This document shows positions 36,756 through 59,937 of a stretch of DNA of 64,000 bases, one piece after another (positions within the stretch are counted from its first letter, which is position 1; every line of letters begins with the position of its first letter). A model generated the notes under the pieces. The model searched no databases. It was not told the DNA's origin and worked only from the letters and a program-made list of their open reading frames with translations. Source of the DNA: an uncultured bacterium (lineage in GTDB: Bacteria > Patescibacteriota > Dojkabacteria > J137); NCBI GenBank assembly GCA_963700155.1, contig OY969472.1:445511-509510 (forward strand), given 5' to 3'. The position numbers and the translations under genes were made by a program.

Positions 36756-36991
36756 AAGCCATTTTTGTCAAAAACATTCTTTTTTAGTAAAAAATCTGTT
36801 TCCAACTATGGACATTCCTTATTAAATATGCTATAAATCTAGCACGTCTTTTTTCAGTAGAATTATTTTGAACAAATTCACTATTAATCTCTTTAAAATC
36901 CAAAAAATATAAAATTTATAGGGTGTGAACACTAAGGTAAGTTTGCGCCCTTTTTCTATTTATAATTTAATTAAATACATTATTAAATATA

Positions 36992-39900
36992 TGGCAAGTC
37001 TAACAAAGAGAATCACCCTTAGCAAAAATCCGATTCCACATTTGGACATGGACTATCTTGAAGCTCAAAAATCGTTCTTCAGAGAATTCATGGAAAATGG
37101 TTTCGAAGAATTATTTGATGAAATTTCACCAATTGAAGATTATACTGGTAATTCATGGGAAATTACCTTTGAAGATGTAGCATGGGGAGATGCCAAAATA
37201 AGTTTTAGAGACGCACAGCTTTTAGGTCAAACTTATGATGCCCCAGTTCATGTAACTATCAGACTAGTTAATAAGAAAACAGGAGAAATCAAGAAGCAGA
37301 AGATTTATTTATGCGATATGCCATTAATGAGTGATAGAGCTTCATTTATGGTTAATGGTAATGAAAGAGTTGTAGTCTTCCAAATTCTTCGATCAGAAGG
37401 TGTTTTATTCTCCGAAAGCAAAAGTTCAAGTACAAAGAAAAGATTGTATTCAGTAAAATTAATGCCTCATAGAGGAAATTGGTATGAGTTTGAAATAAAC
37501 AAATATGGTGTAATGAGCATTAAACTTCTACAAAAAAGACCAAGAATTTTATTAACAACACTTTTAAGAGCACTTGGATACAGCTCAGATTCTGAAATCA
37601 AAAAAGCTTTAGGTGCTGCTGATCAAGGAGAAATGAGTTACATAGATGCAACATTAAGAAAAGATCCTACAAAGAATACTGAAGAAGCTTTAATTGATAT
37701 TTATAGAAAACTAAGACCAGAAGACACTGTAACAATTGAGAATGCACAAGCATTAATTGATAATATTTTCTTTAATAAAAGAAGGTTCTATTTAGGAAAA
37801 ATAGGAAGATATAAATTAAATAAAAAATTGAAAATTGATGAAGATATAAAGTTAACAGACTATATTTTAAAGAAAAGAGATATAGTAGAAGTTATTAGAG
37901 CTTTATTAGAGTTGAACCATGGTACAAGACTTCCAGATGATATTGATAGTTTAAGTAATAGAAGAATCAGAGGAGTAAATGAGTTAGTTGGAGAAAAGAT
38001 TAGAGTTGGAGTCTTAATAATGGAAAAAAATATTAGAGACAAAATGAGTACCTATTCAACAGATGAAAAAGTAACTCCTGCAATGTTAGTAAACACAAGA
38101 CCAATTATCTCAGCAGTTAATCAATTCTTTGGAAGCTCTGCATTAATGAGATTTATGGATCAAGAAAATCCTTTATCTGAATTAGAAGCTAAAAGAAAAA
38201 TTTCTGCTGGAGGACCAAGAGGTTTAACAAAGGAAAGAGCAACTTTCTCAGTAAGAGATGTACATAACTCACACTATTCAAGATTATGTCCTGTTACTAC
38301 ACCAGAGGGTCCTTCAATTGGTATGGTTAACCAGCTTTCAATTTATGCAAAGATAAATGAATTTGGTTTCTTAGAAGCTCCCTACTACAAGGTAGTAAAT
38401 AAATTTGACTCAGACAGTAAGAAAAAAGATTTTATCGGAAGAGTAGTAGCTGAAGACATTAAAAGCGGTAAGAAAACATTGGTTAAAAAGGGAGAAGTAT
38501 TAACCGAAAAATCAATTGATGCAATCCAAAAAGCAGGAATATCAACTTTTGCTATTGATCCATTTATTAAGAAAGATGAAGTAATTTACCTTGATGCTGA
38601 TAATGAAATATTACATAAAGTAGCAAGCGCTTCTATACAAGCTGCTGAAAACGGAAATATTACCGAGGAAAAGACTTATGTTAGAGATGGTCAAAATTAC
38701 ACAAAAGTAAATATTGATCAAGTTGATCTTGTTGATGTAAGTCCTGCTCAGATTGCAGGAATGGGATTAGCATTAATTCCTTTTGCAGGAAATGATGACC
38801 CAAACAGAACTTTGATCGGTGCAAAAACTCAAAACCAGTCAATTCCACTAGTAAAGAACGAAGCTCCAATAGTAGGAACAGGTTTTGAATCTGAAGCAGC
38901 AAGAGCATCTGGAAGAACAATTTATGCAGAAGAAAATGGAAAAACTTTAAGTTCAGATGCAAATCAAGTTGTAGTTCAATACGCTGGCCAGAAAGAAAAA
39001 ACTATTTATCCTGTAGAAAACTTTGTAAGAACAAACCAAAATACATCATTCTCTCAAAGACCACTTGTGATGCCGGGAGAATCATTTAAGAAAGGTGATG
39101 TTTTAGTTGATGGACCATGTACAAGAAATGGAGAGCTTGCTTTAGGAATAAATTTAAGAACAGCTTATGTAGTTTATGATGGATATAATTATGAAGATGG
39201 GATTGTTATCTCACAAAGATTAGTAAAAGATGACATGTTAACTTCAGTTCATATTCAAGAATATGTTCAAGAAGTCAGAGAAACGAAACTAGGAAATGAA
39301 TTAGTTACAAGAGATATTCCTGGTGTTGGAGAATGGGCATTAAGAAATCTGGACGAGGATGGAATTGTAAGAATTGGTGCAAGTGTTCAATCAAATGATA
39401 TTTTGGTAGGAATAATTGCTCCAAAAGGAGAAACAGAGCTAACTGCAGAAGAAAAACTTTTAAGAGCAATCTTCGGAGAATATGCAAGAGATGTTAGAGA
39501 TAACTCATTAAGACTTCCTCATGGAGATCATGGAGTAGTTATAGGAGTACAGATTTTAGACAGAATAAATGGAGCAAAATTAAATGCAGGAGTATTAAAA
39601 CAAGTTAAAGTGTGGGTTGCAAAAACACATAAGATATCAATAGGAGATAAATTAACTGGATATCATGGGGATAAGGGAGTTGTAACAAAGATTGTACCTG
39701 AAGAAGATATGCCACATACCTCAGATGGCAAACCAGTAGATGTAATACTAGGACCATCGTCAATGGTTAGAAGAATGAACTTAGGACAGTTAATTGAGAC
39801 ACATATCGGAGAATTAGCAAAGAAATTAGGAATAAAAGTAGAGATTCAACCATTCTCTGAATATTCACTTAAACCATTAATGGACTTAGCTAAGAAGAAT

Positions 39901-40416
39901 GGAATAGATTATGAAGAAAAAGTTGATTTATATGATGGTAGAACAGGGGAAAAATATAACCAGAAAGTCACAGTTGGAATGAAATACTTCTTTAAGCTAG
40001 ACCATTTGGCTGACCACAAAGTGCATGCAAGATCAACCGGTCCATACACTTTAGTTACACAACAACCATTAAGAGGTAAAGCACAACGAGGAGGGAGAAG
40101 ATTTGGAGAAATGGAAGTTTGGGCACTTGAAGCACATGCAGTGCCAAATGTATTGCATGAAATGCTTACTATCAAATCTGATGATGTTGTTGGAAGAGCA
40201 GCAGCTTATAAAGCAATAATTTCAGGAAACAAGATCACAGCACCAAATGTTCCAGAATCATTTAACGTTTTGGATAAGGAATTAGCAGGATTGGCTATCA
40301 AGTTAGATAAGATTAATGCCGAATATGATGAAGAGAGAAGCGAAATGGCATTAGAGGAGATTGTTGATTCAGTTGGAGCACAAGATGCACCAGATGTAAT
40401 GGATACAACATTTTAA
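36992..40416 (+). CDS. rpoB: DNA-directed RNA polymerase subunit beta
   Basis: The ORF is open from a GTG at 36925. The first ATG at 36992 gives MASLTKRITLSKNPIPHLDMDYLEAQKSFFREFMENG... The beta-subunit regions are conserved throughout (for example ...GNELVTRDIPGVGEWALRNLDEDGIVRIGA..., ...RMNLGQLIETHIG..., ...RSTGPYTLVTQQPLRGKAQRGGRRFGEMEVWALEAHA). Confidence 0.9.
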
Positions 40417-40428
40417 TTTAGATTTTAT

Positions 40429-40453
40429 GCGGCGAGTCAGAATGACTCGCCGC
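40429..40453 (+). promoter_or_regulatory. GC-rich hairpin in the rpoB-rpoC intergenic spacer (GCGGCGAGTC-agaat-GACTCGCCGC); candidate attenuator or processing site
   Basis: A 10-bp perfect GC-rich stem in an otherwise AT-rich 68-nt spacer. It is not followed by a clean U-tract, so partial termination or an RNase III site is more likely than a full terminator. Confidence 0.4.
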
Positions 40454-40484
40454 AAATTATTAATATTTTTAACCAATTAAAACT

Positions 40485-43400
40485 ATGCTTAAGGATTTTA
40501 ATGCAGTAAAGATCACAATCGCTTCTCCTCAAGATATTATGAACTGGTCTCATGGAGAGGTAACAAAAGCAGAGACAATCAACTATAGAACTTTCAAGCC
40601 TGAACCAGGGGGATTAATGGCTGAAGAGATATTCGGTCCTACTAAGGACTTTGAATGTTACTGTGGTAAATACAAAAAGATTAGATACAAAGGTATTATT
40701 TGTGACAGATGTGGAGTTGAAATTACACACAAAAGAGTAAGAAGAGATAGAATGGGTCACATTAAGCTAGCTTCTCCAGTTTCTCATGTATGGTTCTCAA
40801 ATGGAGTTCCTAATAGATTAGCTTTAATTCTTGATATCCCTCAGAAGAAATTAGAAACAGTAATTTATTATGCAAGATATGTTGTTACAAATGTTGAAGA
40901 AGAAGAAAGAACTAAAGCTTTAGAGAGCTTGAAAGAATATAAACAAAATGAAATGGATGAGTTAGCAAAAGAATTAGATGACAAAATTGCTGAGGTTAAG
41001 ACCAAATTTGAAGAAGAGGCAACAGAAGCAAAGAAAGCTACAAAAGATAAGAATAAATTGGAACTTCAGTTAGAAAGATTAAGAAATAATGAAAAAACTG
41101 AAGTAGCAAGAATCAGATCTGCATTCAAACAAAGACAAGATAACATTGATAAAAAATTTGTTGATTTAAAGAGCTTAATTTCTGATATAAAATCAGGCTT
41201 TACACTATCTGAGGAAGATTATCAGCTTTTAGAGAGCTATAGTTTCTATTTCTTTACTGCAGGAATGGGAGCAGAAGCAATAAAAGAGCTTTTAGAGAAA
41301 TTAGATATCACAGTGGAGATTAATCACTTAGAAGAAGAGCAGAAATCTACAAGATCTCAGATTAAAAAATCTCGAATTGTTCAAAGATTAAGAATACTTA
41401 AGGGTTTACAAAAATCAGGTGTAAGTCCAGCATGGATAGTTTTAGATATTTTGCCTGTTATTCCTCCAGATATAAGACCTATTGTCCAACTTCCAGGAGG
41501 TAGATTTGCAACTTATGATTTAAATGATCTTTATAGAAGAGTAATAAATAGAAATAACAGATTGAAGAGACTTATTTCACTTGGAGCACCAGAAATCATT
41601 TTAAGAAATGAAAAAAGAATGCTTCAAGAATCTGTTGATTCATTATTAGATAATAATCATAAACCAGGTTCACCTTCGTTAAACTCAAGAGGATTACCAT
41701 TCAAATCATTATCGGACATGTTAAGAGGTAAGCAAGGTAGATTTAGACAGAACTTACTAGGAAAGCGGGTTGATTATTCGGGATCTGCGGTCATTGTTCC
41801 AGGACCAGAATTAAACTTCGACCAATGCGGATTACCAAAGAATTTGGCCTTAGAATTATTCAAACCATTCATTATTAGAGAATTAATTGCCAGAGGATTA
41901 GCTGCAAATCCAGCAAAAGCTAAGTTAGTATTTGAATCAAAACCAGATGAAGTTTGGGATATTTTAGAAGAAGTAAGTAAAAACAGACCAGTCTTATTGA
42001 ATAGAGCTCCTACTTTACATAGGCAGTCAATTTTAGCTTTCTATCCAGTTTTAATTGAAGGTAACTCAATTAGATTACATCCAATGACATGTGCTGGATT
42101 CAATGCTGACTTTGATGGAGACCAAATGGCAGTTCATTTACCATTATCAGAAAAAGCTGTTGAAGAAGTAAAATTAAGAATGTTTGCAAAAGAGAATCTT
42201 TTATCTTTAAGAGATGGGACCCCATTATTCAATGTGTCAAAAGATATGGCAATGGGAATTTACTTTTTAACTTTAGTAAGAGATTACCCTGAAGATAAAA
42301 TTAATATATATTCATCTGTTGAAGATTTGATGGCATCTTACCATTTGAGACAAATTAGATTTGATCAAAAAGCGAGATTACTTCTAAATGGAGAGATAAT
42401 TGAGACTTCAGCTGGGAGAGCATTGTTTAATCAAATTATGCCTGAAGATTATCCTTATGTAAATACAACCCTAAACAAAGGAGATATATCAGTATTATCA
42501 GCTGATTTGTTTAACAAATATGGTAGAGACAAGGCAATCGAAGTTCTCGATCATATTAAATTATTAGGATTTAAATATGCTGGAAGACTAGGATTCTCTG
42601 TTTCAATGCAAGAATTCAAATTCGGTGGAGAAAAGATTATTGATGAAAGATTAAAAGAATACAGTAAAAAAGAAGATGAATTGATTAATGAATACAATGA
42701 CGGTTTAATTACTGAGAATGAATTAAGATGGATTAAAAGAGATGTATGGCAAAAAGACGCAGACAAGATGCAGGAAGATGTTTGGGAATTAGCTAAAGTA
42801 AAATCTGTAAATTTAATGGATCTTCAAAATTCTGGAGCTGTTTCAGTAAGTTCATGGGTAAAAAAGATTTCAGGAGTTTCAGGATATGTTACAGATCCAT
42901 CTGGAAATATTGTAGATCTTCCATTAAAAAGTAACTTTGAAAAAGGATTCACAAATTTTGAATATTTTGTTGCTGCAAAAGGAGCAAGAAAATCATTCGC
43001 AGATGTTGCTTTAAGAACTGCTGATTCAGGATATTTAACAAGAAGACTTCATGATGTTGCACAAGATGTAATTACAAATGCAGAGGATTGCGGTACAGAT
43101 GAAGGTATAATTGTAGAAAGATCTGCAAAAAGATTACAAAGCTTTAAGAACAGAATTAGAGGTAGATATACTGCAGAAGATATTTCAGATCCAAAGACAG
43201 GGGAAATTATTGTAAAGAAAAATGAACCTATAACATTGGAGGTTGCTGAAAAAATTAATGCAATTGAAGAAATTCAAGGTATTAAAGTAAGAAGTCCATT
43301 AGCCTGCAAGATAGCACATGGAATGTGTCAAAAATGTTATGGATTTGATAATAGTACTGGAAAACTTGTTGATATTGGAGAAGCAGTAGGAACTATTGCA

Positions 43401-44438
43401 TCTCAAGCTTTAGGAGAACCTACAACTCAGCTTACTTTAAAGAGTAAATCAGACGCTAGAGCTGCAAAAGCAGACGTTACACAAGGTTTGCCAAGAGTTG
43501 AAGAACTTTTAGAAGCAAGAACACCAAAAGCACTAGCATTATTAGCTGACTTCGATGGAAAAGTAAAAATTATCGAAGATAAGAAGAAAGTTATAGTAAG
43601 AATTTCTGCTTTGAAAGAAGTTACAAAAAAATATGAAGTTAAGAATGAAAAGAATATCACTGTGAAGAACAATGCTAAAGTCAAAGCAGGAGACGTCTTG
43701 GCTGTAGCTAATAAGAAAGAATTAAATGCAGAATTCTCAGGAACAGTAGAAGTTGAAGGTAATACAATCACTTTAAAAGGTAAGAAAGATGTAGAAGTTG
43801 AAAAAGAAACAGATCAATTAGCAAACTTAATGGTAAAGGATGGAGATGAAGTTAAAAGAGGAGATCAATTAACATTCGGTTCTGTAGATCCTAAAGAACT
43901 AGCAAGGTTAAAAGATATGTATTTTGCTCAAAAGTATATTGTTGCAGGGGTACAAGATGTTTATGGAATTCAAGGATTAGAAGCTGATGATAGACATTTG
44001 GAAATTATTGCAAGACAAATGAGCAGATATGGATTAATCGTTGATAACTTTGGGAGCGAAACATTCTTACCGGGAGACTATGTTGATATCCTTGATATTG
44101 GAGAAGAAAATAAGAAATTAAAGGAGCAGGGAAATAAAGAAATTAAATACGATAGAGTATTATTAGGAATAACAAACTCAGCAATACGAACAGAAAGCTT
44201 CTTATCAGCTGCTTCGTTTGAACAGCAAGTTAGAGTTTTGACTGATGCAGCCTTGATTGGAAAGGTTGATCATTTGAGAGGATTGAAAGAAAATGTTATA
44301 ATCGGCAGACCTGTTCCATTAGGAAATGAGTTAAAAAAGAAATTAGGTATGATAGTTGATGAGGAAGAGGAAATGGAGGCAGAAGATAAGATGACTATTG
44401 ATGAACCAGGAAAAGGGAATGATGAATTCTTAGTTTAA
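40485..44438 (+). CDS. rpoC: DNA-directed RNA polymerase subunit beta'
   Basis: It has the N-terminal zinc motif CYCGKYKKIRYKGIICDRCGVE and the catalytic NADFDGDQM. 1317 aa. Confidence 0.92.
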   Translation: MLKDFNAVKITIASPQDIMNWSHGEVTKAETINYRTFKPEPGGLMAEEIFGPTKDFECYCGKYKKIRYKGIICDRCGVEITHKRVRRDRMGHIKLASPVSHVWFSNGVPNRLALILDIPQKKLETVIYYARYVVTNVEEEERTKALESLKEYKQNEMDELAKELDDKIAEVKTKFEEEATEAKKATKDKNKLELQLERLRNNEKTEVARIRSAFKQRQDNIDKKFVDLKSLISDIKSGFTLSEEDYQLLESYSFYFFTAGMGAEAIKELLEKLDITVEINHLEEEQKSTRSQIKKSRIVQRLRILKGLQKSGVSPAWIVLDILPVIPPDIRPIVQLPGGRFATYDLNDLYRRVINRNNRLKRLISLGAPEIILRNEKRMLQESVDSLLDNNHKPGSPSLNSRGLPFKSLSDMLRGKQGRFRQNLLGKRVDYSGSAVIVPGPELNFDQCGLPKNLALELFKPFIIRELIARGLAANPAKAKLVFESKPDEVWDILEEVSKNRPVLLNRAPTLHRQSILAFYPVLIEGNSIRLHPMTCAGFNADFDGDQMAVHLPLSEKAVEEVKLRMFAKENLLSLRDGTPLFNVSKDMAMGIYFLTLVRDYPEDKINIYSSVEDLMASYHLRQIRFDQKARLLLNGEIIETSAGRALFNQIMPEDYPYVNTTLNKGDISVLSADLFNKYGRDKAIEVLDHIKLLGFKYAGRLGFSVSMQEFKFGGEKIIDERLKEYSKKEDELINEYNDGLITENELRWIKRDVWQKDADKMQEDVWELAKVKSVNLMDLQNSGAVSVSSWVKKISGVSGYVTDPSGNIVDLPLKSNFEKGFTNFEYFVAAKGARKSFADVALRTADSGYLTRRLHDVAQDVITNAEDCGTDEGIIVERSAKRLQSFKNRIRGRYTAEDISDPKTGEIIVKKNEPITLEVAEKINAIEEIQGIKVRSPLACKIAHGMCQKCYGFDNSTGKLVDIGEAVGTIASQALGEPTTQLTLKSKSDARAAKADVTQGLPRVEELLEARTPKALALLADFDGKVKIIEDKKKVIVRISALKEVTKKYEVKNEKNITVKNNAKVKAGDVLAVANKKELNAEFSGTVEVEGNTITLKGKKDVEVEKETDQLANLMVKDGDEVKRGDQLTFGSVDPKELARLKDMYFAQKYIVAGVQDVYGIQGLEADDRHLEIIARQMSRYGLIVDNFGSETFLPGDYVDILDIGEENKKLKEQGNKEIKYDRVLLGITNSAIRTESFLSAASFEQQVRVLTDAALIGKVDHLRGLKENVIIGRPVPLGNELKKKLGMIVDEEEEMEAEDKMTIDEPGKGNDEFLV

Positions 44439-50333: not shown

Positions 50334-52142
50334 TTATAGACTTGTAATCTGGTAAAGATTATCTAATTTAAACCCTCTCTTATCATAATATTCTCTTGTT
50401 CCAATGCTAGAAATAACTGCGAGTTTCTCAAAACCTTTTTCCTTCGAAATTTCTTTCGCTTTCTCAATTAATTTTGTCCCTAAACCAAGGTGCTGCGCTT
50501 CACCAGCTGAATCTTTTTTAAGTTCTAAACTTGGACCATAAACATGAACTTCCCGTATAACAGCGCAGCCACTTAGCTCAGAAGTTATTGGATTCTCATT
50601 TGAATCAGGAACAGAAAGTCGTAAAAAACCTGCTATTGATCTATCTAAAGCAATATACTGCAAGAAATATTCAGTCGTTAATTCTGTTCTATATTCAATA
50701 ATATCAAGCTTTAAATCATCAATCGTTACTTTTCTCCCTTTGATCTCTCTGTTCCTAATATTTGGATTTTTCCTGCCTTCATCTTTAAGTTTATATTCAG
50801 CAACTTCCCGAAGATTTGTAGTTTTATTTCCACCTTCAATTTCTTGAGAAGGAATATCTCGAATAATTCTTGTTAATCTACAATATTCTGGAGTATTCTC
50901 CATACAGTCTGCTATTAAATTTATAAGATCGTCTGCAGAATATGGTTGATATTTTCCTTCCAGAAATAAATTATAAAGCTCAGTGTTTTTTATTACCGAA
51001 GTAGGATAAATTTTTAATTCATCTGGCTTATAACTCTCCGATTCAAATAATTCTTTATAGACTTGAAGATCAATCTTAGGAGTTGCACCATAAAGGTTCG
51101 GCATTATATGTGCATGGATTTTAAAACCACCTGCTCTCAAGAGTTGAAAAGCTTTAGAAGTCTCAGCTCGGTGCTCACCACGCTTATTTAAATCGCTAAT
51201 ATTGTCATCCAGAGTCTGAATTCCTATCTGAATCTTTGTAGCACCGAGCTTTCGAAGATCATAAACCTCTTTCTCGGTGATTGTATCAGGGCGAGTCTCC
51301 AAGACGAGCCCAACACAACGGCTTTTTCCATTAGAATTTATATTTTGTTCTGAAACTAATTGTTCCCAAAGTTCATCTAAAGAAATTTTGGATAAATCAT
51401 CCTCAGAGATAAATTTTGAAATATATTCTTTGAACTCAGGGGTTTGAAGAAGCTGGTTATATGGTTTATCTCCAGTTTTTTTTCGAAGCTCATCATTAAA
51501 ATCATTTTCCAAGTCCTTTGTTATATCTACCTGTGATAAATCCTGATCATTTTCTTTAGAATTTTTTGTATGAAACTCATTCATTGCCCTAAAACATTCT
51601 TTAATAAACCAGACTTGATACTTTTTTGGATAATATACCCAAGTACCACCAAGAATTAGCAATTCTATTTTCTCAGTCGGATGCCCAATATTATCTAGCG
51701 CTTTTAAGCGATTGTAGACTTGAATATACGGATTAAATCTGTACATTAAAGCTCTCTGAGCACCTGGTTCAGTTGCGATATAGCTTTTAGGCATTCTTAC
51801 ATCATTAGGGCAAAATATGCAGTTCCCAGGGCATGCAAATGGCTTTGTAAGTACAGTTACTGTTGTAACTCCCGAAATTGTTCGCGTTGGCTTCATGCGG
51901 ATTTGAGATTTAAGTTCTTCAATTTGAGATCTTAAATTTTCATTATACTTATCTTCCCCAGCTAAAAACTCAAATCCGCGAATTAACTGATCTCTGCTAA
52001 AGATTTGGTTTTTATCTTTTGGATATTTCTTCAGAATTTTATCTAAAGCATGTTTTGAGAAAGTATCTAAAGACAAGGTTTCATCCAAAATTCCCTTTAG
52101 CTCAATTCTATATTTTTCAGGTTTAAAGTCATAATTCTTCAT
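50334..52142 (-). CDS. Elongator Elp3-like tRNA uridine(34) carboxymethyl/acetyl-transferase (radical-SAM + GNAT)
   Basis: The radical-SAM cluster motif is FACPGNCIFCPN. KSYIATEPGAQRAL and QIGIQTLDD are Elp3-type motifs. The C-terminal GNAT domain is (IREVHVYGPSL...AQHLGLGTKLIEKAKEISKEKGFEKLAVISSIGTREYYDKRGF). 602 aa. Confidence 0.8.
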   Translation of the reverse strand: MKNYDFKPEKYRIELKGILDETLSLDTFSKHALDKILKKYPKDKNQIFSRDQLIRGFEFLAGEDKYNENLRSQIEELKSQIRMKPTRTISGVTTVTVLTKPFACPGNCIFCPNDVRMPKSYIATEPGAQRALMYRFNPYIQVYNRLKALDNIGHPTEKIELLILGGTWVYYPKKYQVWFIKECFRAMNEFHTKNSKENDQDLSQVDITKDLENDFNDELRKKTGDKPYNQLLQTPEFKEYISKFISEDDLSKISLDELWEQLVSEQNINSNGKSRCVGLVLETRPDTITEKEVYDLRKLGATKIQIGIQTLDDNISDLNKRGEHRAETSKAFQLLRAGGFKIHAHIMPNLYGATPKIDLQVYKELFESESYKPDELKIYPTSVIKNTELYNLFLEGKYQPYSADDLINLIADCMENTPEYCRLTRIIRDIPSQEIEGGNKTTNLREVAEYKLKDEGRKNPNIRNREIKGRKVTIDDLKLDIIEYRTELTTEYFLQYIALDRSIAGFLRLSVPDSNENPITSELSGCAVIREVHVYGPSLELKKDSAGEAQHLGLGTKLIEKAKEISKEKGFEKLAVISSIGTREYYDKRGFKLDNLYQITSL

Positions 52143-54731: not shown

Positions 54732-55085
54732 ATGCCACCAACTTCGGAAGAAATCGTAAAAAATGCAGAAGAGATTTTAAAAAATGAAGATCCTAACTTC
54801 GATAAAGAAGATATGGATAATGAGCAGATTCTGAACGAATTTATACTTCCAGGACTAAAGAACTCTAAAGATACTTTAAGCTCTATTTATGACTTCAGGA
54901 GTCGAAATCGGGCGGGTTTTTTAGGGAGGCTGAAAAGTATGCTGCAAAACAAGATAATAAACACAGTAATCAATGTCATGGAAAAACCCGCCATGAAGCA
55001 GCAGAAATTCAACGAACTAACCTACAAAGCTATCGAAGCTTTAATAAAAGAGAATGAAGAGTTAAAGAAGAAACTCCAGTCTTAA
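54732..55085 (+). CDS. Hypothetical protein
   Basis: 117 aa, charged and helical. No motif recognised. Tight 17-nt spacing from the upstream gene suggests co-transcription. Confidence 0.4.
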   Translation: MPPTSEEIVKNAEEILKNEDPNFDKEDMDNEQILNEFILPGLKNSKDTLSSIYDFRSRNRAGFLGRLKSMLQNKIINTVINVMEKPAMKQQKFNELTYKAIEALIKENEELKKKLQS

Positions 55086-55140
55086 ATCATAAATGATATA
55101 ATCAACCAAATTACTTTGTGTTATAGATTATTACCCTTTT

Positions 55141-55905
55141 ATGTCCCCTGATAATTTTAAACAGAAAAATAGTATAAAAGAACTTCCTCAGCCAAAAGAA
55201 CTCTTTGTTATCCAAATTATTTTTGCAAAAAAAATTTCTGATTTGATAAACATTTCTTTTGAAGAAGCACTTTTAAAATATACTTCTTTTTATAAACGCA
55301 TTGGTATCCTCGACTGGGATTATAACGAAGATAACCCCAAATGGATAGAATTTTTAAATAGAATACATTCTGGAGTTGATCCAGCAGAAATAGCATACTC
55401 AATGTATTTAGATGATTTTCAAAAATCGAATGAGTATTCTAAACCCAGAAGTTGTTTTTCATATAATTATGATGAAAGTGAAAAAACTGTCTCGATTCAC
55501 TTTAGAAATAATTTTGCTAATCATGAAAGTCCATTATCAGATAGCAACAAAAACACTCGAGTAGAAGAATTAACAAGTATGTTCAAAGAGATAAAATCAA
55601 AATACCCTGAAGCACAGAGTGTTGAATGTGGCACATGGTTATTGGCATATGATTCCTTTAAAAGTTTTTTCCCTTTAGAATTTACTCAACATTTAGAAGA
55701 ACTTAAAGTTGGAAATAGAGGAATGGCTATATGGGGACAATTTATAACTAGCTCAGGACAGATAAATTATGAACGAATGGAACAGTTTTTAACTGCAGCA
55801 GAGAATTCGAAAAATATGCATGAATTACTTGATGCTTTCCCAATAAAATTTTACAAAGCTCTAACTGATATAAAATTCTTTTATGAATATTTACGGATAA
55901 AATAA
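55141..55905 (+). CDS. Hypothetical protein
   Basis: 254-aa ORF. No motif recognised. Confidence 0.4.
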   Translation: MSPDNFKQKNSIKELPQPKELFVIQIIFAKKISDLINISFEEALLKYTSFYKRIGILDWDYNEDNPKWIEFLNRIHSGVDPAEIAYSMYLDDFQKSNEYSKPRSCFSYNYDESEKTVSIHFRNNFANHESPLSDSNKNTRVEELTSMFKEIKSKYPEAQSVECGTWLLAYDSFKSFFPLEFTQHLEELKVGNRGMAIWGQFITSSGQINYERMEQFLTAAENSKNMHELLDAFPIKFYKALTDIKFFYEYLRIK

Positions 55906-55931
55906 TTGACACAACATGTTTTAATTCTAGA

Positions 55932-56408
55932 TTACACAACCTCATCATAATCCACCAAAAACCATTTATTATTTCTTAGTTCTAATGATTTTCTCAAATC
56001 ATAAAATTGAAATTCAAATTCTTCAGTATTTTCTTGAGATTTCTCAAAAGTTATTTCTATATCATTATTAAATTTGAAATAACCACCACTTTCTTCTAAT
56101 GAAATATCTATCAAGTTCAATTTTCTAGTTGATAGTTCTTCCAAAGTATCTGAAATTTCTTGATCATTAGAAGTCTTTATATCCAGAATCGTTCTTTTTT
56201 TTTCTAGAATTTTCCAGTACCGAGTTAAGTGAATTATAAATTCATAAAGACTATAGGTTCTCTTCTTGCCATGAACTTCATATGTCCTTTTTACTCTAAA
56301 ATCTCCTAAATCAACCCACAAATGTGTTCCTATCGACCACCAAATCTTTTGTAAAGGTCTGTTTAAAATTCTATTTATATATTTTTCTGAATTAGTAATT
56401 TTCTTCAT
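55932..56408 (-). CDS. Hypothetical protein
   Basis: 158-aa ORF, convergent with 55141-55905. No motif recognised. Confidence 0.4.
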   Translation of the reverse strand: MKKITNSEKYINRILNRPLQKIWWSIGTHLWVDLGDFRVKRTYEVHGKKRTYSLYEFIIHLTRYWKILEKKRTILDIKTSNDQEISDTLEELSTRKLNLIDISLEESGGYFKFNNDIEITFEKSQENTEEFEFQFYDLRKSLELRNNKWFLVDYDEVV

Positions 56409-56651: not shown

Positions 56652-59483
56652 ATGGCTTTACCACAGGGTCCTTACAATCCAAAAGAATCAGAAGCAGAAA
56701 TGCTTAAATTCTGGCTGGATAACAAATTTTATAAACCAGAATATAATCCAAAAACAGATAAGGTCGAAACTACAGAAGAGATGAAAGCGGACGCGCGTAA
56801 GCCATGGGCTTTAATTTGCCCTCCACCTAATGCTTACGCGCGTCCGCACATCGGCAATATCTCTGGTTATGCATACCAAGATGCAATGGCAAGATATGCA
56901 AGAATGAATGGTAAAAAAGTTTTGGTACTTCCAGGAAAAGATCATGCTGGGCTTGAAGGTGAAGGAGTTTTTGTTAGAGAAGTTTTAGAAAAACAGGGTA
57001 GATATAAATTCGATATGAAGAGAGAAGACTTCTATAACGAAATGATGGAGTTTTTCGAAAAGAATATGGATATAGCTTTAAAAGATGAAAGAGAAATTGG
57101 GCTTTCTGCAGATTTCGATAGAAATACTTTTACACTTGATCCTGATATAGTCGAAACTGTTTTAGATACTTTTGTTGAAATGTATAAAGCAGGAATGATT
57201 TATAAAGGAGTTAGAATTGTTAACTGGGACCCAAAAGCAAGAAGCGTTATAGCGGACAATCAATGTGAAAGAGAAGAACGAGAAGGAACTTTGTATTATA
57301 TAAAATATCCGATAGTTGATAGTTCTGAATTTATTACAGTAGCAACAACAAGACCAGAAACTATGTTTGGCGATACTGCAGTTGCTTTTAATCCAGATGA
57401 TAAAAGATATAAAAATTTAATTGGTAAAAAAGTAAGAATTCCACTAACCGATATTGAAATACCAATAATTACCAGTTTTAGAGTTTTAACGGATTTTGGC
57501 ACAGGAGCCTTAAAAATTACTCCAGCTCATGCACAAGATGATTACCAAATTATGATGGAGTGGAATAGCCAAAATCCGGATAACAAGATTAGCTATCGAA
57601 ATGTTATAGGACAAGATCTTAAACTAACAGGAGCTGTTCCTGCAAAATATAAAGGAAGAAAGTACAAAGAAGCACTACCTGAAATAATTGAAGATTTAAA
57701 ACAAGCTGGGAATTATGTAAAAGAAGAAAAAATCAAACAAAATATATTAATATCCGAAAGAACGAAAGCTATTGTTGAACCAGTAATTTCTTCACAATGG
57801 TATTTGAAATACGACAAAGAAGACCACAATATTAAAGAAGCTGCAATGAAAATGGTTCAAAATGGAGAAGTTAAGATTCATCCCGAGAATATGGTTCAAA
57901 AATTCAATCACTGGATGGAGAATTTAAGAGATTGGGCAATTTCGAGATCATTGTGGTGGGGATATAGACTTCCTGTTTGGTATGCTGGCCAGATTTCCGA
58001 AGAAATTGATGAAAATGGACAGGTCAAAGAATTTATTGAAATTAATGGTAAGAAAGAAGAGTTAGACTATTCAAATCCAGACCACCTAAGAGTTCAAAAA
58101 CTCTCTCCTGATATAAATAGTATCAACTTAATTTTAATCCCAGGTAAGCATGGTTATGCACACAAAGAACTTTATCCTACAATAAAAACTAAATTTAAAA
58201 ACACCTTAGAAATTAGAGTTAACAATATAGACAGCCCGAGTACCAATGATTATATAGAGGCTCTAAAGAAAATAGAATTTAACCAAAAAGATATAGTTTT
58301 AGCCCATTCACTCGGGTGTAGAGCCATTATTAGGTACATTTTGGATAATAAACTCAAGTTAAAACATCTTATACTTTTAGCTCCCGGTGCCAGATTAGAG
58401 GGTAGAAAAGATGGGAAAGATTCAAAATACCTGTATCTAATTACTAGTATTAAAGACTATAACAAATTAAGCAATTTAGTTGAAAAAATTACAGTAATAT
58501 ATTCAGATGATGATCCATTAGCATCAAAAGAGGATTTTGAAAAATTTATATTACTTTTAGGAGATAAAGCTGAAGGCATCCTAGAACAAGGTAAGGGGCA
58601 TTATTGTGAAGAGAAAGGAACATCTGATTCCAAAATATTAGATAGTATTCTTGCTCCCTACTCATCTGAACTTACAAACTCAATATGGCACCAAGATGAT
58701 AACGTTTTAGACACATGGTTTTCATCAGGACAGTGGGTTTATGCAATATTATCAAAATACAACTTAATGGATACATTCTTCCCTACAAATGTTTTAGTTT
58801 CAGCTTCAGATATTTTAGAAAATTGGGATTCAAGAATGATGATGTTTACTTACTTCAAACATAAAAATATTCCATTTAAAAACTTATTCTTAACAGGATT
58901 AGTTCTCGGAAAAGACGGACAAAAGATGAGCAAATCTCGAGGTAATATAGTTGATATTGATAGAGTAAAAGATATATTTGGAACAGACTCATTAAGAATG
59001 GCATATTTCTATCAAAATTCAGCAGGTGGATCTTATGTAATTTCTGATGACAAGTTAAAAAACTTTAAACAATTTAATAACAAACTTTGGAACGCTTCAA
59101 AATTTGTCTTAATGAATACAGAAAACTTAAAAGAATTTGAGGGAGATGAGTCTATTAGTAAGTGGAGCAATGAACTTTTACAATATATTGCTGATCTAAA
59201 AATTAAAATTACTGAAAATATAGAAAATTATGAATTTGGATATGCGACAGAAACACTTTATCAGGAATTCTGGCATACTTTCTGTGATAAATATATAGAA
59301 GAAAGCAAAGTACACTTATTAAATCAATCTGAAAGAATGGAAGTTCAAAGTACACTTTTATATACACTTAAAGAGTTTATAAAAATGCTTCACCCATTTA
59401 TCCCATTTATAACTGAAAAGATCTGGCAAGAAGTTCCTAAAAATAACTATGACCACAAAAGTTTAATGTACACCACTTGGTAA
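56652..59483 (+). CDS. valS: Valyl-tRNA synthetase with an in-frame inserted YdeN/RBBP9-type alpha/beta serine-hydrolase domain (~aa 485-675)
   Basis: ValRS hallmarks: ICPPPNAYARPHIGN (HIGH-type), the editing-domain GTGALKITPAHAQDDYQI, ISRSLWWGYRLPVWY, DTWFSSGQW, and KMSKSRGNIVD. Between LPVWY... and ...DTWFSS lies a segment of about 190 aa. It contains IPGKHGYAH, VLAHSLGCRAIIRYIL (the nucleophile elbow), LLAPGA, IYSDDDPLAS (Asp) and GKGHYCEEKGTSD (His). These match B. subtilis YdeN (LVAHSLGC..., SKDDQIVPF, HGGHFLEDEGFTS). This ValRS has no long C-terminal coiled-coil tRNA-binding domain. Confidence 0.85.
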   Translation: MALPQGPYNPKESEAEMLKFWLDNKFYKPEYNPKTDKVETTEEMKADARKPWALICPPPNAYARPHIGNISGYAYQDAMARYARMNGKKVLVLPGKDHAGLEGEGVFVREVLEKQGRYKFDMKREDFYNEMMEFFEKNMDIALKDEREIGLSADFDRNTFTLDPDIVETVLDTFVEMYKAGMIYKGVRIVNWDPKARSVIADNQCEREEREGTLYYIKYPIVDSSEFITVATTRPETMFGDTAVAFNPDDKRYKNLIGKKVRIPLTDIEIPIITSFRVLTDFGTGALKITPAHAQDDYQIMMEWNSQNPDNKISYRNVIGQDLKLTGAVPAKYKGRKYKEALPEIIEDLKQAGNYVKEEKIKQNILISERTKAIVEPVISSQWYLKYDKEDHNIKEAAMKMVQNGEVKIHPENMVQKFNHWMENLRDWAISRSLWWGYRLPVWYAGQISEEIDENGQVKEFIEINGKKEELDYSNPDHLRVQKLSPDINSINLILIPGKHGYAHKELYPTIKTKFKNTLEIRVNNIDSPSTNDYIEALKKIEFNQKDIVLAHSLGCRAIIRYILDNKLKLKHLILLAPGARLEGRKDGKDSKYLYLITSIKDYNKLSNLVEKITVIYSDDDPLASKEDFEKFILLLGDKAEGILEQGKGHYCEEKGTSDSKILDSILAPYSSELTNSIWHQDDNVLDTWFSSGQWVYAILSKYNLMDTFFPTNVLVSASDILENWDSRMMMFTYFKHKNIPFKNLFLTGLVLGKDGQKMSKSRGNIVDIDRVKDIFGTDSLRMAYFYQNSAGGSYVISDDKLKNFKQFNNKLWNASKFVLMNTENLKEFEGDESISKWSNELLQYIADLKIKITENIENYEFGYATETLYQEFWHTFCDKYIEESKVHLLNQSERMEVQSTLLYTLKEFIKMLHPFIPFITEKIWQEVPKNNYDHKSLMYTTW

Positions 59484-59505: not shown

Positions 59506-59937
59506 TTGACGGTTTATATAAATGGGCTTTATAATCACACCAGTAATTATTATAGTATTTTAATGGACTATTTAGCACCTGAGAAAAGAGATCTTATAAA
59601 AGCAGCAGAATATGCTGAAACATCTACTTATCCAATCAGGGTACTTGCCAAAAAATATCAAGATATTAGAGCAATGTACGGCTACTCTTTAACACTCCCA
59701 GCTTTAGCAGTTTTCACTGGTTTGAGTTTACATGAAGTTCTAGAAATGTATATTTGTGACTTCATTGGAGAAAAAACTTTAGAAGATTTAAAATCTGAGC
59801 TAAGTTCTACAGAAACCCAAATTGAATTAAATGATATTGATTATGATCTTTCAGAGGAAACTAATGATTTGGAGAATAGAAGATCTAATTTGGTAAGTGC
59901 TATAAGATATTTAGAAACTGGTGAAATTTCTTACTGA
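59506..59937 (+). CDS. Hypothetical protein
   Basis: 143-aa ORF, 22 nt downstream of valS. No motif recognised. Confidence 0.4.
   Translation: MTVYINGLYNHTSNYYSILMDYLAPEKRDLIKAAEYAETSTYPIRVLAKKYQDIRAMYGYSLTLPALAVFTGLSLHEVLEMYICDFIGEKTLEDLKSELSSTETQIELNDIDYDLSEETNDLENRRSNLVSAIRYLETGEISY

What the first reader, a model, noticed from the sequence alone, without database searches (positions are those of the whole stretch)
58100..58690. valS carries an in-frame, apparently catalytically intact YdeN/RBBP9-type serine hydrolase domain inserted in the synthetase core
The valS ORF is continuous and has all ValRS landmarks.

A segment of about 190 aa sits between the post-editing-domain core (ISRSLWWGYRLPVWY) and the DTWFSSGQW/KMSKS region. 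Most ValRS have only about 40 aa there. The segment has the full signature of the Ser_hydrolase (YdeN/RBBP9, PF06821-like) alpha/beta fold:
- IPGKHGYAH
- the nucleophile elbow VLAHSLGC
- LLAPGA
- the acid DDDP
- the His in GKGHYCEEKG

These line up block-for-block with B. subtilis YdeN. I recall it is not a known aaRS module, and it does not look like an intein, since there are no Cys/Ser...His-Asn splice junctions.

It could be a second hydrolytic proofreading or deacylase activity built into the enzyme, a moonlighting esterase, or a domain captured by a mobile insertion.
Basis: partly seen in the sequence, partly recalled or inferred. Interest (0 to 1): 0.85.

Follow-up and report, generated by a model that had tools for sequence, protein, structure and literature searches.

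The report
Serine hydrolase nested inside valyl-tRNA synthetase
A complete valyl-tRNA synthetase gene from a tiny-genome (CPR, Dojkabacteria-like) bacterium carries a whole, apparently active YdeN/RBBP9-type serine hydrolase folded into one of its surface loops. It is one example of an apparently undescribed habit in these bacteria of plugging small enzymes into Val/Ile/Leu-tRNA synthetases.

Summary
The valS ORF (56652-59483, 943 aa) is continuous and passes the valS equivalog model. A 190-aa segment (aa 488-677, nt 58113-58682) is a PF06821 Ser_hydrolase domain (E 2.3e-10, above Pfam's cut-off). Its AF2 model (pLDDT 93) superposes on B. subtilis YdeN (TM 0.84) and human RBBP9.

The domain sits in a hairpin loop of the CP3 subdomain, exactly where the nearest insert-less orthologue reads ...NPG-AGW.... 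Ser553, Asp621 and His650 are invariant in 19 such modules from 17 related ValRS that share only 25-81% module identity.

The new context is larger than the finding. Of the 120 closest ValRS, 31 carry an enzyme-sized insert (214-449 aa) in CP3: Ser_hydrolase, GNAT, histidine phosphatase, in one case HAD-like, alone or in pairs. Presence is patchy even between hosts 85-94% identical. The same hydrolase family is also nested in LeuRS and IleRS of other CPR phyla.

The function is not resolved. I favour an accessory, autonomous hydrolase carried by the synthetase (about 0.45) over a tRNA- or adenylate-directed extra proofreading site (about 0.3). It is not an intein, and I found no sign of a chimeric assembly. 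I found no published description.

The parts
56652..59483 (+). valS ORF, 943 aa, continuous (end includes the stop codon)
   Evidence: TIGR00422 valS 645.8 bits against cut-off 612.1. Best PDB sequence match is 1GAX, E 6.8e-120. Full-length AF2 model has pLDDT 91.2 and pTM 0.81, and its best fold match is 1GAX, TMt 0.74.
56847..56858 (+). HIGH-type signature (H66-I-G-N69)
   Evidence: H66 and G68 are invariant in the 58-sequence alignment.
57285..57731 (+). CP1 editing domain (approximately aa 212-360), motifs TTRPET and GTGALKITPAHAQDD intact
   Evidence: Aligns to the isolated T. thermophilus ValRS editing domain 1WKA. Motifs checked.
57933..57962 (+). CP2-CP3 linker WAISRSLWWG (aa 428-437)
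   Evidence: Homologous to the IleRS 'linker CP2-3' ARDWNVSRNRYWG, which lines the tRNA-site pocket (PMC7955072).
57963..58112 (+). N-terminal part of CP3 (aa 438-487), small beta-sheet, no cysteines
   Evidence: Sequence. Strands E442-444, 447-452, 458-464, 467-470 and 479-481 in the model.
58113..58682 (+). Nested YdeN/RBBP9-type serine hydrolase domain (aa 488-677, 190 aa)
   Evidence: PF06821 E 2.3e-10. Boundaries from comparison with P0003. AF2 pLDDT 93.3, pTM 0.91. Foldseek: 1UXO TM 0.84, RBBP9 TM 0.75-0.78.
58308..58310 (+). Ser553, nucleophile in the elbow AHSLG
   Evidence: Invariant in 19 modules (S65 in module numbering). Aligned to YdeN AHSLGC and RBBP9 GHSSGA.
58512..58514 (+). 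Asp621, triad acid (third D of YSDDDP)
   Evidence: Invariant D133 in module numbering. Aligned to the second D of RBBP9 STDDP and of YdeN SKDDQ.
58599..58601 (+). His650, triad base (GKGHYC)
   Evidence: Invariant H162 in module numbering. Aligned to RBBP9 CGHF and YdeN GGHF.
58683..58727 (+). Return strand of CP3 and start of the second Rossmann half (IWHQDDNVLDTWFSS, aa 678-692)
   Evidence: W679, Q681 and D687-S692 are invariant.
58923..58937 (+). KMSKS loop (aa 758-762)
59172..59480 (+). Anticodon-binding domain (aa 841-943). The protein ends here, with no C-terminal coiled coil.
   Evidence: PF08264 E 1.4e-23. The alignment to 1GAX stops at chain residue 694 of 862.

Best explanation
The gene encodes a normal, complete ValRS. 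Its CP3 subdomain carries, at the tip of a beta-hairpin, a self-contained and catalytically competent YdeN/RBBP9-type serine hydrolase with the triad Ser553-Asp621-His650.

Shown:
- The hydrolase is a compact alpha/beta-hydrolase domain joined to CP3 by linkers of only a few residues.
- Its catalytic residues are under purifying selection.
- It is one of several interchangeable small-enzyme cassettes that Dojkabacteria-like ValRS carry in the same loops (Ser_hydrolase, RimI-like GNAT, cobC/PspA-like histidine phosphatase, HAD).
- These cassettes are gained and lost on short evolutionary timescales.
- Related CPR LeuRS and IleRS carry the same hydrolase family at other connective-peptide loops.

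Inferred:
- The ValRS part charges tRNA-Val as usual. The synthetase mainly serves as a permissive, constitutively expressed carrier.
- The hydrolase works largely on its own on a small substrate. By analogy with RBBP9, the only characterised family member, this would be an ester or amide of an amino acid with a free alpha-amino group, or another acyl ester.
- The cassette is accessory, not required for aminoacylation.
For: Domain identity and integrity.

Exact loop position relative to the insert-less orthologue.

The ValRS is complete, and its CP1 editing motifs are conserved whether or not the module is present.

The same loops host unrelated enzyme families, sometimes two in tandem (Ser+Ser, Ser+His_Phos, GNAT+Ser). 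This argues against a single fixed docking geometry.

Patchy distribution:
- The window protein is nested among insert-less relatives with 76-78% core identity.
- P0008 versus P0054 (90% identical) and P0014 versus P0076 (85% identical) differ by the whole domain.

The PF06821 family is also nested in UvrB and in a GT2 glycosyltransferase, and is fused to NUDIX, Ham1 or HD house-cleaning enzymes.

Free-standing relatives:
- One sits beside Peptidase_S51, RidA, glyoxalase and metallo-beta-lactamase-fold genes.
- Another sits in a NUDIX-containing operon on a mobilisable element.
- None is next to a tRNA or aaRS gene.

rpoB and rpoC in the same window carry no nested domains, so this is not a genome-wide property of large proteins.

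RBBP9 chemistry: an aminopeptidase that needs a free alpha-amine (PMC8866121). It is also named a valacyclovir-activating enzyme in the title of Shenoy et al. 2020 (reference list of PMC7730578).
Against: - Twenty of 26 multi-domain hosts among the 150 best profile hits are Val/Leu/Ile-tRNA synthetases, and one further protein fuses the hydrolase to a Trbp111-type tRNA_bind domain. This enrichment would also fit a tRNA-linked role.
- No close free-standing copy of the ValRS-nested clade exists among 1.84 billion representatives. Only 4 hits reach 1e-30, and all are ValRS. This clade has therefore evolved only inside the synthetase.
- CP3 adjoins the CP2-3 linker that lines the tRNA 3'-end pocket.
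- The full-length model has no disordered linker and pTM 0.81, which hints at a defined placement.
- No activity or substrate has been measured for any bacterial family member.
Confidence: 0.45

Rival explanations
1. The hydrolase is a third, cis-acting hydrolytic site of the synthetase. Held next to the acceptor-end channel, it would hydrolyse aminoacyl esters made by the enzyme: mischarged or surplus aminoacyl-tRNA-Val, or misactivated aminoacyl-adenylate. That would make it a proofreading or deacylase module with an alpha/beta-hydrolase fold. A variant of this idea has it releasing hydrophobic amino acids from peptides or esters to feed the adjacent active site.
For: - Family chemistry fits. 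RBBP9 cleaves alpha-aminoacyl amides only when the alpha-amine is free, and is reported to activate the L-valyl ester prodrug valacyclovir (title cited).
- PF06821 was captured independently at several different sites of ValRS, LeuRS and IleRS in Dojkabacteria and Gracilibacteria: CP3, before CP1, and late in or after CP1.
- The family is fused to a tRNA_bind domain in a Harrisonbacteria protein with an intact GHSIG...SDNDP...GHF triad.
- CP3 follows the linker that forms part of the tRNA-site pocket in IleRS.
- Linkers are short and ordered in the full-length model.
Against: - The CP1 editing site is intact in hosts and non-hosts alike, so nothing needs replacing.
- The nearest relatives do without the module.
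- Phosphatases, GNAT, NUDIX and Ham1 occupy the same loops, and tandem arrangements displace the module. This is hard to reconcile with a required geometry.
- Outside the catalytic residues the module shows little invariant surface.
- The RBBP9 alpha-amine anchor Glu108 lies in a loop that is not conserved here.
- Free-standing relatives show no tRNA or aaRS neighbourhood.
Confidence: 0.3
2. The insert is a neutral or decaying passenger: a domain that landed in a tolerant loop and has no function of its own.
For: Presence is patchy and clearly dispensable among close relatives. Module and host divergence do not correlate (Spearman rho 0.08). Modules evolve fast, sharing 25-81% identity.
Against: - Ser, Asp, His, the PG loop and four other positions are invariant across 19 modules despite that divergence.
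- The ORF is intact and the AF2 model is very confident.
- Codon composition is fully host-like.
- A decaying passenger would lose its triad first.
Confidence: 0.12
3. The insert is an assembly or annotation artefact: a chimeric contig, or two genes joined by mistake.
For: The source is a metagenome-derived genome, and read coverage could not be inspected.
Against: - Both halves of the Rossmann fold flank the insert in frame.
- The same architecture is seen in 16 other ValRS from independent assemblies, including a 1.15-Mb JGI contig.
- Composition is uniform.
Confidence: 0.02
4. The insert is an intein or another self-splicing or mobile protein element that is removed after translation.
For: It is a large in-frame insertion in an essential gene with patchy distribution. 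A relative, P0068, carries a DUF559 endonuclease domain at another site.
Against: - No Hint or intein Pfam hit.
- The junctions read SPD|INS and TNS|IWH, with no Cys/Ser/Thr start and no His-Asn plus Cys/Ser/Thr end.
- The whole segment is accounted for by an alpha/beta-hydrolase fold.
- No flanking DNA repeats.
Confidence: 0.02

Closest known systems
B. subtilis YdeN (PDB 1UXO) and human RBBP9 (2QS9, 7OEX, 9FCR); Pfam PF06821 Ser_hydrolase
   Same: About 185-aa minimal alpha/beta-hydrolase fold (TM 0.84 and 0.75-0.78). Nucleophile elbow xHSxG, acid in SxxDD and His in GH[FY] align column for column. Pfam gathering score passed.
   Different: Those proteins are free-standing. This one is nested in a loop of another enzyme. 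Sequence identity is only 14-19%. The RBBP9 alpha-amine-binding loop (Glu108) is not conserved. The substrate is unknown.
CP3 insertion module of class Ia synthetases (cysteine-rich zinc finger, 25-77 aa; class I insertion module 14 in Douglas et al. 2023, PMC10810186)
   Same: Same position, between the WxISR..WWG linker and the DTWFSS strand of the second Rossmann half.
   Different: Here CP3 has no cysteines. The distance from WWG to DTWFSS is 249 aa, against 60 aa in insert-less relatives, because a whole enzyme is nested in it.
IleRS with an N-acetyltransferase domain (NCBIfam NF040702 'ileS_w_GNAT', model type 'exception')
   Same: A precedent for an unrelated enzyme domain built into a class Ia synthetase. 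The model is listed among the weak hits. GNAT cassettes also occur in CP3 of ValRS relatives of this gene.
   Different: Different synthetase and different inserted family. This protein does not reach that model's cut-off (129 bits against 1999).
Hydrolytic editing modules of synthetases (CP1 of Val/Ile/LeuRS; INS/YbaK, AlaX, Dtd trans-editing factors)
   Same: If the rival explanation is right, the chemistry is the same: hydrolysis of an aminoacyl ester at the tRNA 3' end, by a domain inserted in or associated with the synthetase.
   Different: None of these has an alpha/beta-hydrolase fold or a Ser-Asp-His triad (established knowledge of these families). This ValRS keeps its own CP1 site.
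Inteins
   Same: Large in-frame insertions in essential genes with sporadic distribution.
   Different: No splicing junction residues, no Hint fold, no homing endonuclease.

Membership tests
Valine--tRNA ligase (TIGR00422 valS) | Score above the curated equivalog cut-off | tested here: met
   645.8 bits against 612.1. NF004349 falls just below its cut-off (690.5 against 704) because the match is split by the insert.
Valine--tRNA ligase (TIGR00422 valS) | Class I signatures HIGH and KMSKS, CP1 editing motifs, anticodon-binding domain | tested here: met
   HIGN at aa 66, KMSKS at aa 758, TTRPET and GTGALKITPAHAQDD, PF08264 at aa 841-943.
Valine--tRNA ligase (TIGR00422 valS) | C-terminal coiled-coil tRNA-binding domain of bacterial ValRS | tested here: not met
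   The protein ends 15 residues after the position aligned to residue 694 of the 862-residue 1GAX chain. All 120 relatives are similarly short, so this is a lineage trait and not a defect of this gene.
PF06821 Ser_hydrolase (YdeN/RBBP9) | Pfam gathering score | tested here: met
   41.1 bits against 22, aa 494-654 matching profile positions 2-157 of 172.
PF06821 Ser_hydrolase (YdeN/RBBP9) | Minimal alpha/beta-hydrolase fold superposable on solved members | tested here: met
   AF2 pLDDT 93.3. The Foldseek top hits are all YdeN, RBBP9 or YdeN-like: 1UXO TM 0.84, RBBP9 0.75-0.78, 3BDV 0.71.
PF06821 Ser_hydrolase (YdeN/RBBP9) | Ser-Asp-His triad in the family's positions | tested here: met
   Ser553, Asp621 and His650 align to the YdeN and RBBP9 motifs and are invariant in 19 modules.
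PF06821 Ser_hydrolase (YdeN/RBBP9) | Hydrolase activity; RBBP9-like requirement for a free alpha-amine | not testable with these tools
The loop that carries Glu108 in RBBP9 is variable in these modules.
Intein | N-terminal Cys/Ser, C-terminal His-Asn followed by Cys/Ser/Thr, Hint fold | tested here: not met
   Junctions read SPD|INSINL and ELTNS|IWHQ. No Hint or intein family in Pfam.
CP3 zinc-finger module | Cysteine-rich zinc knuckle of 25-77 aa | tested here: not met
   No Cys in the CP3 flanks. The stretch from WWG to DTWFSS is 249 aa.
Anti-phage defence proteins (PADLOC) | Match to any defence-system model | tested here: not met
   No hit for the whole protein or for the insert alone.

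The most novel reading that the evidence does not exclude
Class Ia synthetases of CPR bacteria act as scaffolds for exchangeable plug-in enzyme cassettes. The YdeN-type cassette would be a previously unknown kind of synthetase-linked hydrolytic site: an alpha/beta-hydrolase with a Ser-Asp-His triad that acts on aminoacyl esters at the tRNA 3' end or on aminoacyl-adenylates. This would add a third active site to ValRS, and likewise to LeuRS and IleRS.
Probability: 0.25. Interest if true: 0.9.

Novelty: new variant of a known kind. Interest (0 to 1): 0.7.

Why it matters
Synthetases are among the best-catalogued enzymes. A recent census of catalytic-domain insertion modules lists 15 for class I, with CP3 as a 25-77-aa zinc finger, and it never mentions a hydrolase.

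An intact second enzyme nested in CP3 would extend that catalogue. So would the finding that related ValRS, LeuRS and IleRS swap Ser-hydrolase, GNAT, phosphatase, HAD, NUDIX and Ham1 domains in and out of connective-peptide loops. Together these give a natural data set on three questions:
- how domain insertion into an essential enzyme is tolerated;
- how tiny genomes may consolidate housekeeping enzymes;
- whether new proofreading chemistry can be recruited.

The finding also gives the poorly understood YdeN/RBBP9 family a testable bacterial context. On the practical side, such proteins are currently mis-named in databases. One homologue, for example, is annotated as 'HAD-IA family hydrolase'.

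Tried and rejected
- The word-indexed protein search found nothing useful with the insert alone (no hits). With the module profile it returned only two weak free-standing hits. It does not retrieve nested copies. The exhaustive HMMER search was needed instead.
With the CP3 region as query it returned one locus, the GNAT/His_Phos-bearing relative on OZ246402.1. A taxonomic census in GTDB genomes was therefore not possible. The window's own genome is not in that collection.
- The exact protein is not in the gene-position index.
- The AFDB fold library was unavailable.
- No direct or inverted repeats flank the insert. No tRNA genes in the window. No defence-model hits. The neighbouring ORFs are uninformative.
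- Co-divergence of module and host was tested and rejected (rho 0.08).
- A recombination footprint (CP3 flank much more diverged than the rest of the gene) is strong for GNAT-bearing pairs, but not significant for the window protein against P0003 (69% versus 79%, p = 0.18).
- No paper describing the arrangement turned up in the targeted searches or in the insertion-module census search.
- The idea that the hydrolase compensates for a degenerate CP1 editing site was rejected.
Full report
**1. The observation**

The region lies in a single ORF, 56652..59483 on the + strand, 943 aa. The window has about 30% G+C with no compositional break across the finding. NCBIfam identifies the product as valine--tRNA ligase (TIGR00422, 645.8 bits, cut-off 612.1).

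Pfam splits the class I catalytic domain into two stretches. Between them it places PF06821 Ser_hydrolase at aa 494-654 (E 2.3e-10, 41.1 bits, gathering score 22).

Against solved structures, T. thermophilus ValRS (1GAX) aligns to aa 25-446 and aa 680-928, through its own residues 10-418 and 447-694. About 233 residues here therefore replace about 28 there. The excised segment alone finds B. subtilis YdeN (1UXO, E 2e-4).

The closest insert-less orthologue is P0003, with 78% identity over 724 core columns. It reads ...NPNHLKVQKENPG-AGWMQDENVLDTWFSS. The window protein reads ...NPDHLRVQKLSPD[190 aa]IWHQDDNVLDTWFSS. The insert is therefore aa 488-677 = nt 58113-58682.

**2. What the insert is**

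An alignment of 19 such modules from 17 ValRS was used for structure prediction. The model is very confident: pLDDT 93.3, pTM 0.91, with alternating beta-alpha elements.

Foldseek against the PDB ranks the following first, ahead of generic esterases:
- YdeN 1UXO, TM 0.84
- human RBBP9 (9FCR, 7OEX, 2QS9), TM 0.75-0.78
- the YdeN-like protein 3BDV, TM about 0.71

A profile of the modules aligns their HSLG elbow, SDxD acid and xH[YF] histidine to the corresponding motifs of YdeN and RBBP9. In the window protein these residues are Ser553, Asp621 and His650.

Across the 19 modules, which share 25-81% pairwise identity (33-58% to the window's module), only ten columns are invariant. They include exactly these three residues, the glycine two residues after the nucleophile, and the PG loop after strand 1. 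That is the signature of selection on catalysis, not of a decaying passenger.

The segment has no intein features: no Hint hit, and junctions SPD|INS and TNS|IWH. No DNA repeats flank it. Its GC and GC3 equal those of the host gene.

**3. Where it sits**

In IleRS nomenclature, the motif homologous to WAISRSLWWG is the 'CP2-3 linker'. It contributes to the tRNA-site pocket and is followed by the CP3 subdomain, and then by the second half of the Rossmann fold (PMC7955072).

CP3 is known to differ in topology between species and to bind zinc in some (PMC7191050). It is catalogued as a 25-77-aa cysteine-rich module (PMC10810186).

In this lineage CP3 has no cysteines, and 60 aa separate WWG from DTWFSS. 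The hydrolase is inserted at the tip of the last hairpin (SPG^EGW).

The full-length model has pLDDT 91.2 and pTM 0.81, with no segment below pLDDT 50. The module joins CP3 strands through linkers of a few residues. The best fold match of the whole model is 1GAX. The ValRS itself looks functional, with HIGH, KMSKS and the CP1 editing motifs intact.

**4. The wider pattern (the main new result)**

The identical protein exists in NCBI/ENA on a 1.14-Mb contig. Where the sources name them, its relatives are called Candidatus Dojkabacteria.

Among the 120 best ValRS hits, lengths range from 751 to 1477 aa. There are two variable sites: CP3, and a site before or at the start of CP1.

In CP3, 31 of 119 measurable proteins carry inserts of 214-449 aa. 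By motif counts, corrected for one protein using Pfam, they are:

| CP3 content | Proteins |
|---|---|
| Ser_hydrolase alone | 9 |
| Ser_hydrolase x2 | 2 |
| Ser_hydrolase + His_Phos_1 | 5 |
| GNAT + Ser_hydrolase | 1 |
| GNAT alone | 6 |
| His_Phos_1 alone | 5 |
| GNAT + His_Phos_1 | 2 |
| HAD-like | 1 |

These assignments rest. The pre-CP1 site holds HAD or a DUF559 endonuclease in some relatives.

On a neighbour-joining tree of the core, the inserts are scattered. The window protein is nested among insert-less sequences. Hosts that are 85-94% identical differ by a whole domain, for example P0008/P0054, P0014/P0076 and P0091/P0080. Module identity does not track host identity (Spearman rho 0.08). 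Two module types coexist, and both are present in tandem in P0051.

For GNAT-bearing pairs the CP3 flanks are far more diverged than the rest of the gene (43-57% versus 89-96%, p down to 3e-14). This suggests that whole CP3 cassettes are exchanged by recombination. The signal is not significant for the window protein.

**5. Beyond ValRS**

An exhaustive profile search of 1.84 billion representatives found 1430 proteins at E<=1e-3. Only four reach E<=1e-30, and all four are ValRS. The best free-standing proteins of about 190 aa score about 85 bits, against 160-220 for nested copies. Among the few free-standing relatives that carry a source name, the names are DPANN archaea and CPR Paceibacterota.

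Of 26 multi-domain proteins among the top 150 hits:
- 20 are class Ia synthetases: 5 ValRS, 9 LeuRS, 4 IleRS, 2 unassigned.
- In these the module sits at CP3, before CP1, or late in or after the editing domain.
- It is sometimes accompanied by His_Phos_1, NUDIX or Ham1.
- The two LeuRS/IleRS hosts whose source names were looked up (P0134, P0127) are called Candidatus Gracilibacteria.
- The other six are UvrB and a GT2 glycosyltransferase (both nested), and fusions to HD, Ham1, NUDIX and Imm33.

One further 300-aa protein, named Harrisonbacteria, fuses the hydrolase to a Trbp111-type tRNA_bind domain and has an intact triad.

rpoB and rpoC in the same window carry nothing extra.

Free-standing relatives lie in two kinds of neighbourhood. 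One is a housekeeping or detoxification neighbourhood (Peptidase_S51, RidA, glyoxalase). The other is a NUDIX-containing operon on a mobilisable element.

**6. Mechanism**

What is shown: a complete ValRS, plus a folded hydrolase with a conserved triad on short tethers in CP3, belonging to a set of interchangeable cassettes.

What is inferred: the only characterised family member, RBBP9, removes N-terminal amino acids and requires a free alpha-amine (PMC8866121). It is also reported as a valacyclovir (L-valyl ester)-activating enzyme (title cited in PMC7730578). The family chemistry is therefore release of an amino acid from an acyl linkage. That would suit small aminoacyl esters or peptides, and also an aminoacyl-tRNA end.

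I weigh two readings.

For an autonomous, accessory enzyme carried by a permissive scaffold (about 0.45):
- Unrelated enzyme families use the same loops.
- Tandem arrangements occur.
- The module is dispensable in the nearest relatives.
- CP1 editing is intact.
- There are non-synthetase hosts, and free-standing copies show no tRNA-linked neighbourhoods.

For a synthetase-coupled hydrolase (about 0.3):
- Hosts are strikingly concentrated in Val/Leu/Ile-tRNA synthetases, at several independent sites.
- There is a fusion to a tRNA_bind domain.
- The ValRS-nested clade exists only inside ValRS.
- The site is close to the acceptor-end pocket.

I could not measure the Ser553-to-CCA geometry, because model coordinates are not exposed. 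That measurement and simple deacylation assays would decide between the two readings.

**7. Novelty**

Such sequences are in public databases with automatic Pfam hits, and are variously named 'valine--tRNA ligase', 'class I tRNA ligase family protein' or even 'HAD-IA family hydrolase'. NCBI has an exception model for IleRS with a GNAT domain. Enzyme domains inside class Ia synthetases are therefore not wholly unrecognised.

I found no paper describing a Ser_hydrolase, or this cassette polymorphism, in synthetases. Subscription-only literature was not searchable. I rate it a new variant of a known kind, a synthetase with an accessory domain, and of clear interest to specialists.

Noticed in passing
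window 59172-59483 (C-terminus of valS): The ValRS ends right after the anticodon-binding domain and lacks the C-terminal coiled-coil of bacterial ValRS; 1GAX has 168 more residues. All 120 relatives are similarly short (186-240 aa after KMSKS), so this is a lineage trait.
   Followed up: partly
relatives P0058, P0083, P0068, P0074 (no window coordinates; corresponds to about window 57250-57300): A second insertion hot spot before or at the start of the CP1 editing domain in related ValRS. It carries HAD, a DUF559 (Vsr-like) endonuclease, an ASCH domain (per the JGI name), or unannotated extensions of 110-330 aa. The window protein has none.
   Followed up: partly
relatives P0091/P0080, P0066/P0062, P0019/P0013: ValRS pairs 89-96% identical outside CP3 (87-94% over all core columns) differ by a GNAT domain in CP3. 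Their CP3 flanks are only 43-57% identical, which suggests that whole CP3 cassettes are swapped by recombination (mosaic genes).
   Followed up: partly
L003-L007 (free-standing PF06821 gene P0277): There is a conserved three-gene unit, NUDIX (265 aa), unknown (370 aa), Ser_hydrolase (188 aa). It lies on a mobilisable element with a Mob_Pre relaxase and serine recombinases, once next to a CBASS-like nucleotidyltransferase. Ser_hydrolase and NUDIX are also fused (P0230) and co-nested in a LeuRS (P0132), which hints at a functional link between the two.
   Followed up: no
window 13806-35889 (+): Four consecutive giant ORFs (1068, 1755, 1824 and 2177 aa). The first three were scanned. They carry Peptidase_S74 intramolecular-chaperone, H-type lectin and six Laminin_G_3 domains, so they look like surface or adhesin proteins.
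   Followed up: partly
window 36925-44438 (+): rpoB (1163 aa) and rpoC (1317 aa) show only the standard RNA polymerase domains. Domain nesting is therefore not general to large essential proteins of this genome.
   Followed up: yes
window 50334-52142 (-): A 602-aa radical SAM protein with a Radical_SAM_C domain, possibly ELP3-like. Not examined further.
   Followed up: no
L001 5622-5981 and 9381-9884: In the insert-less relative's locus, a 23S_rRNA_IVP-family gene lies directly upstream of valS and a free-standing NUDIX gene lies two genes downstream. The neighbourhood is not syntenic with the window.
   Followed up: no
window 54732-56408 and 59506-59937: The four ORFs flanking valS (117, 254, 158 and 143 aa) have no Pfam match at E<=0.01.
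   Followed up: partly
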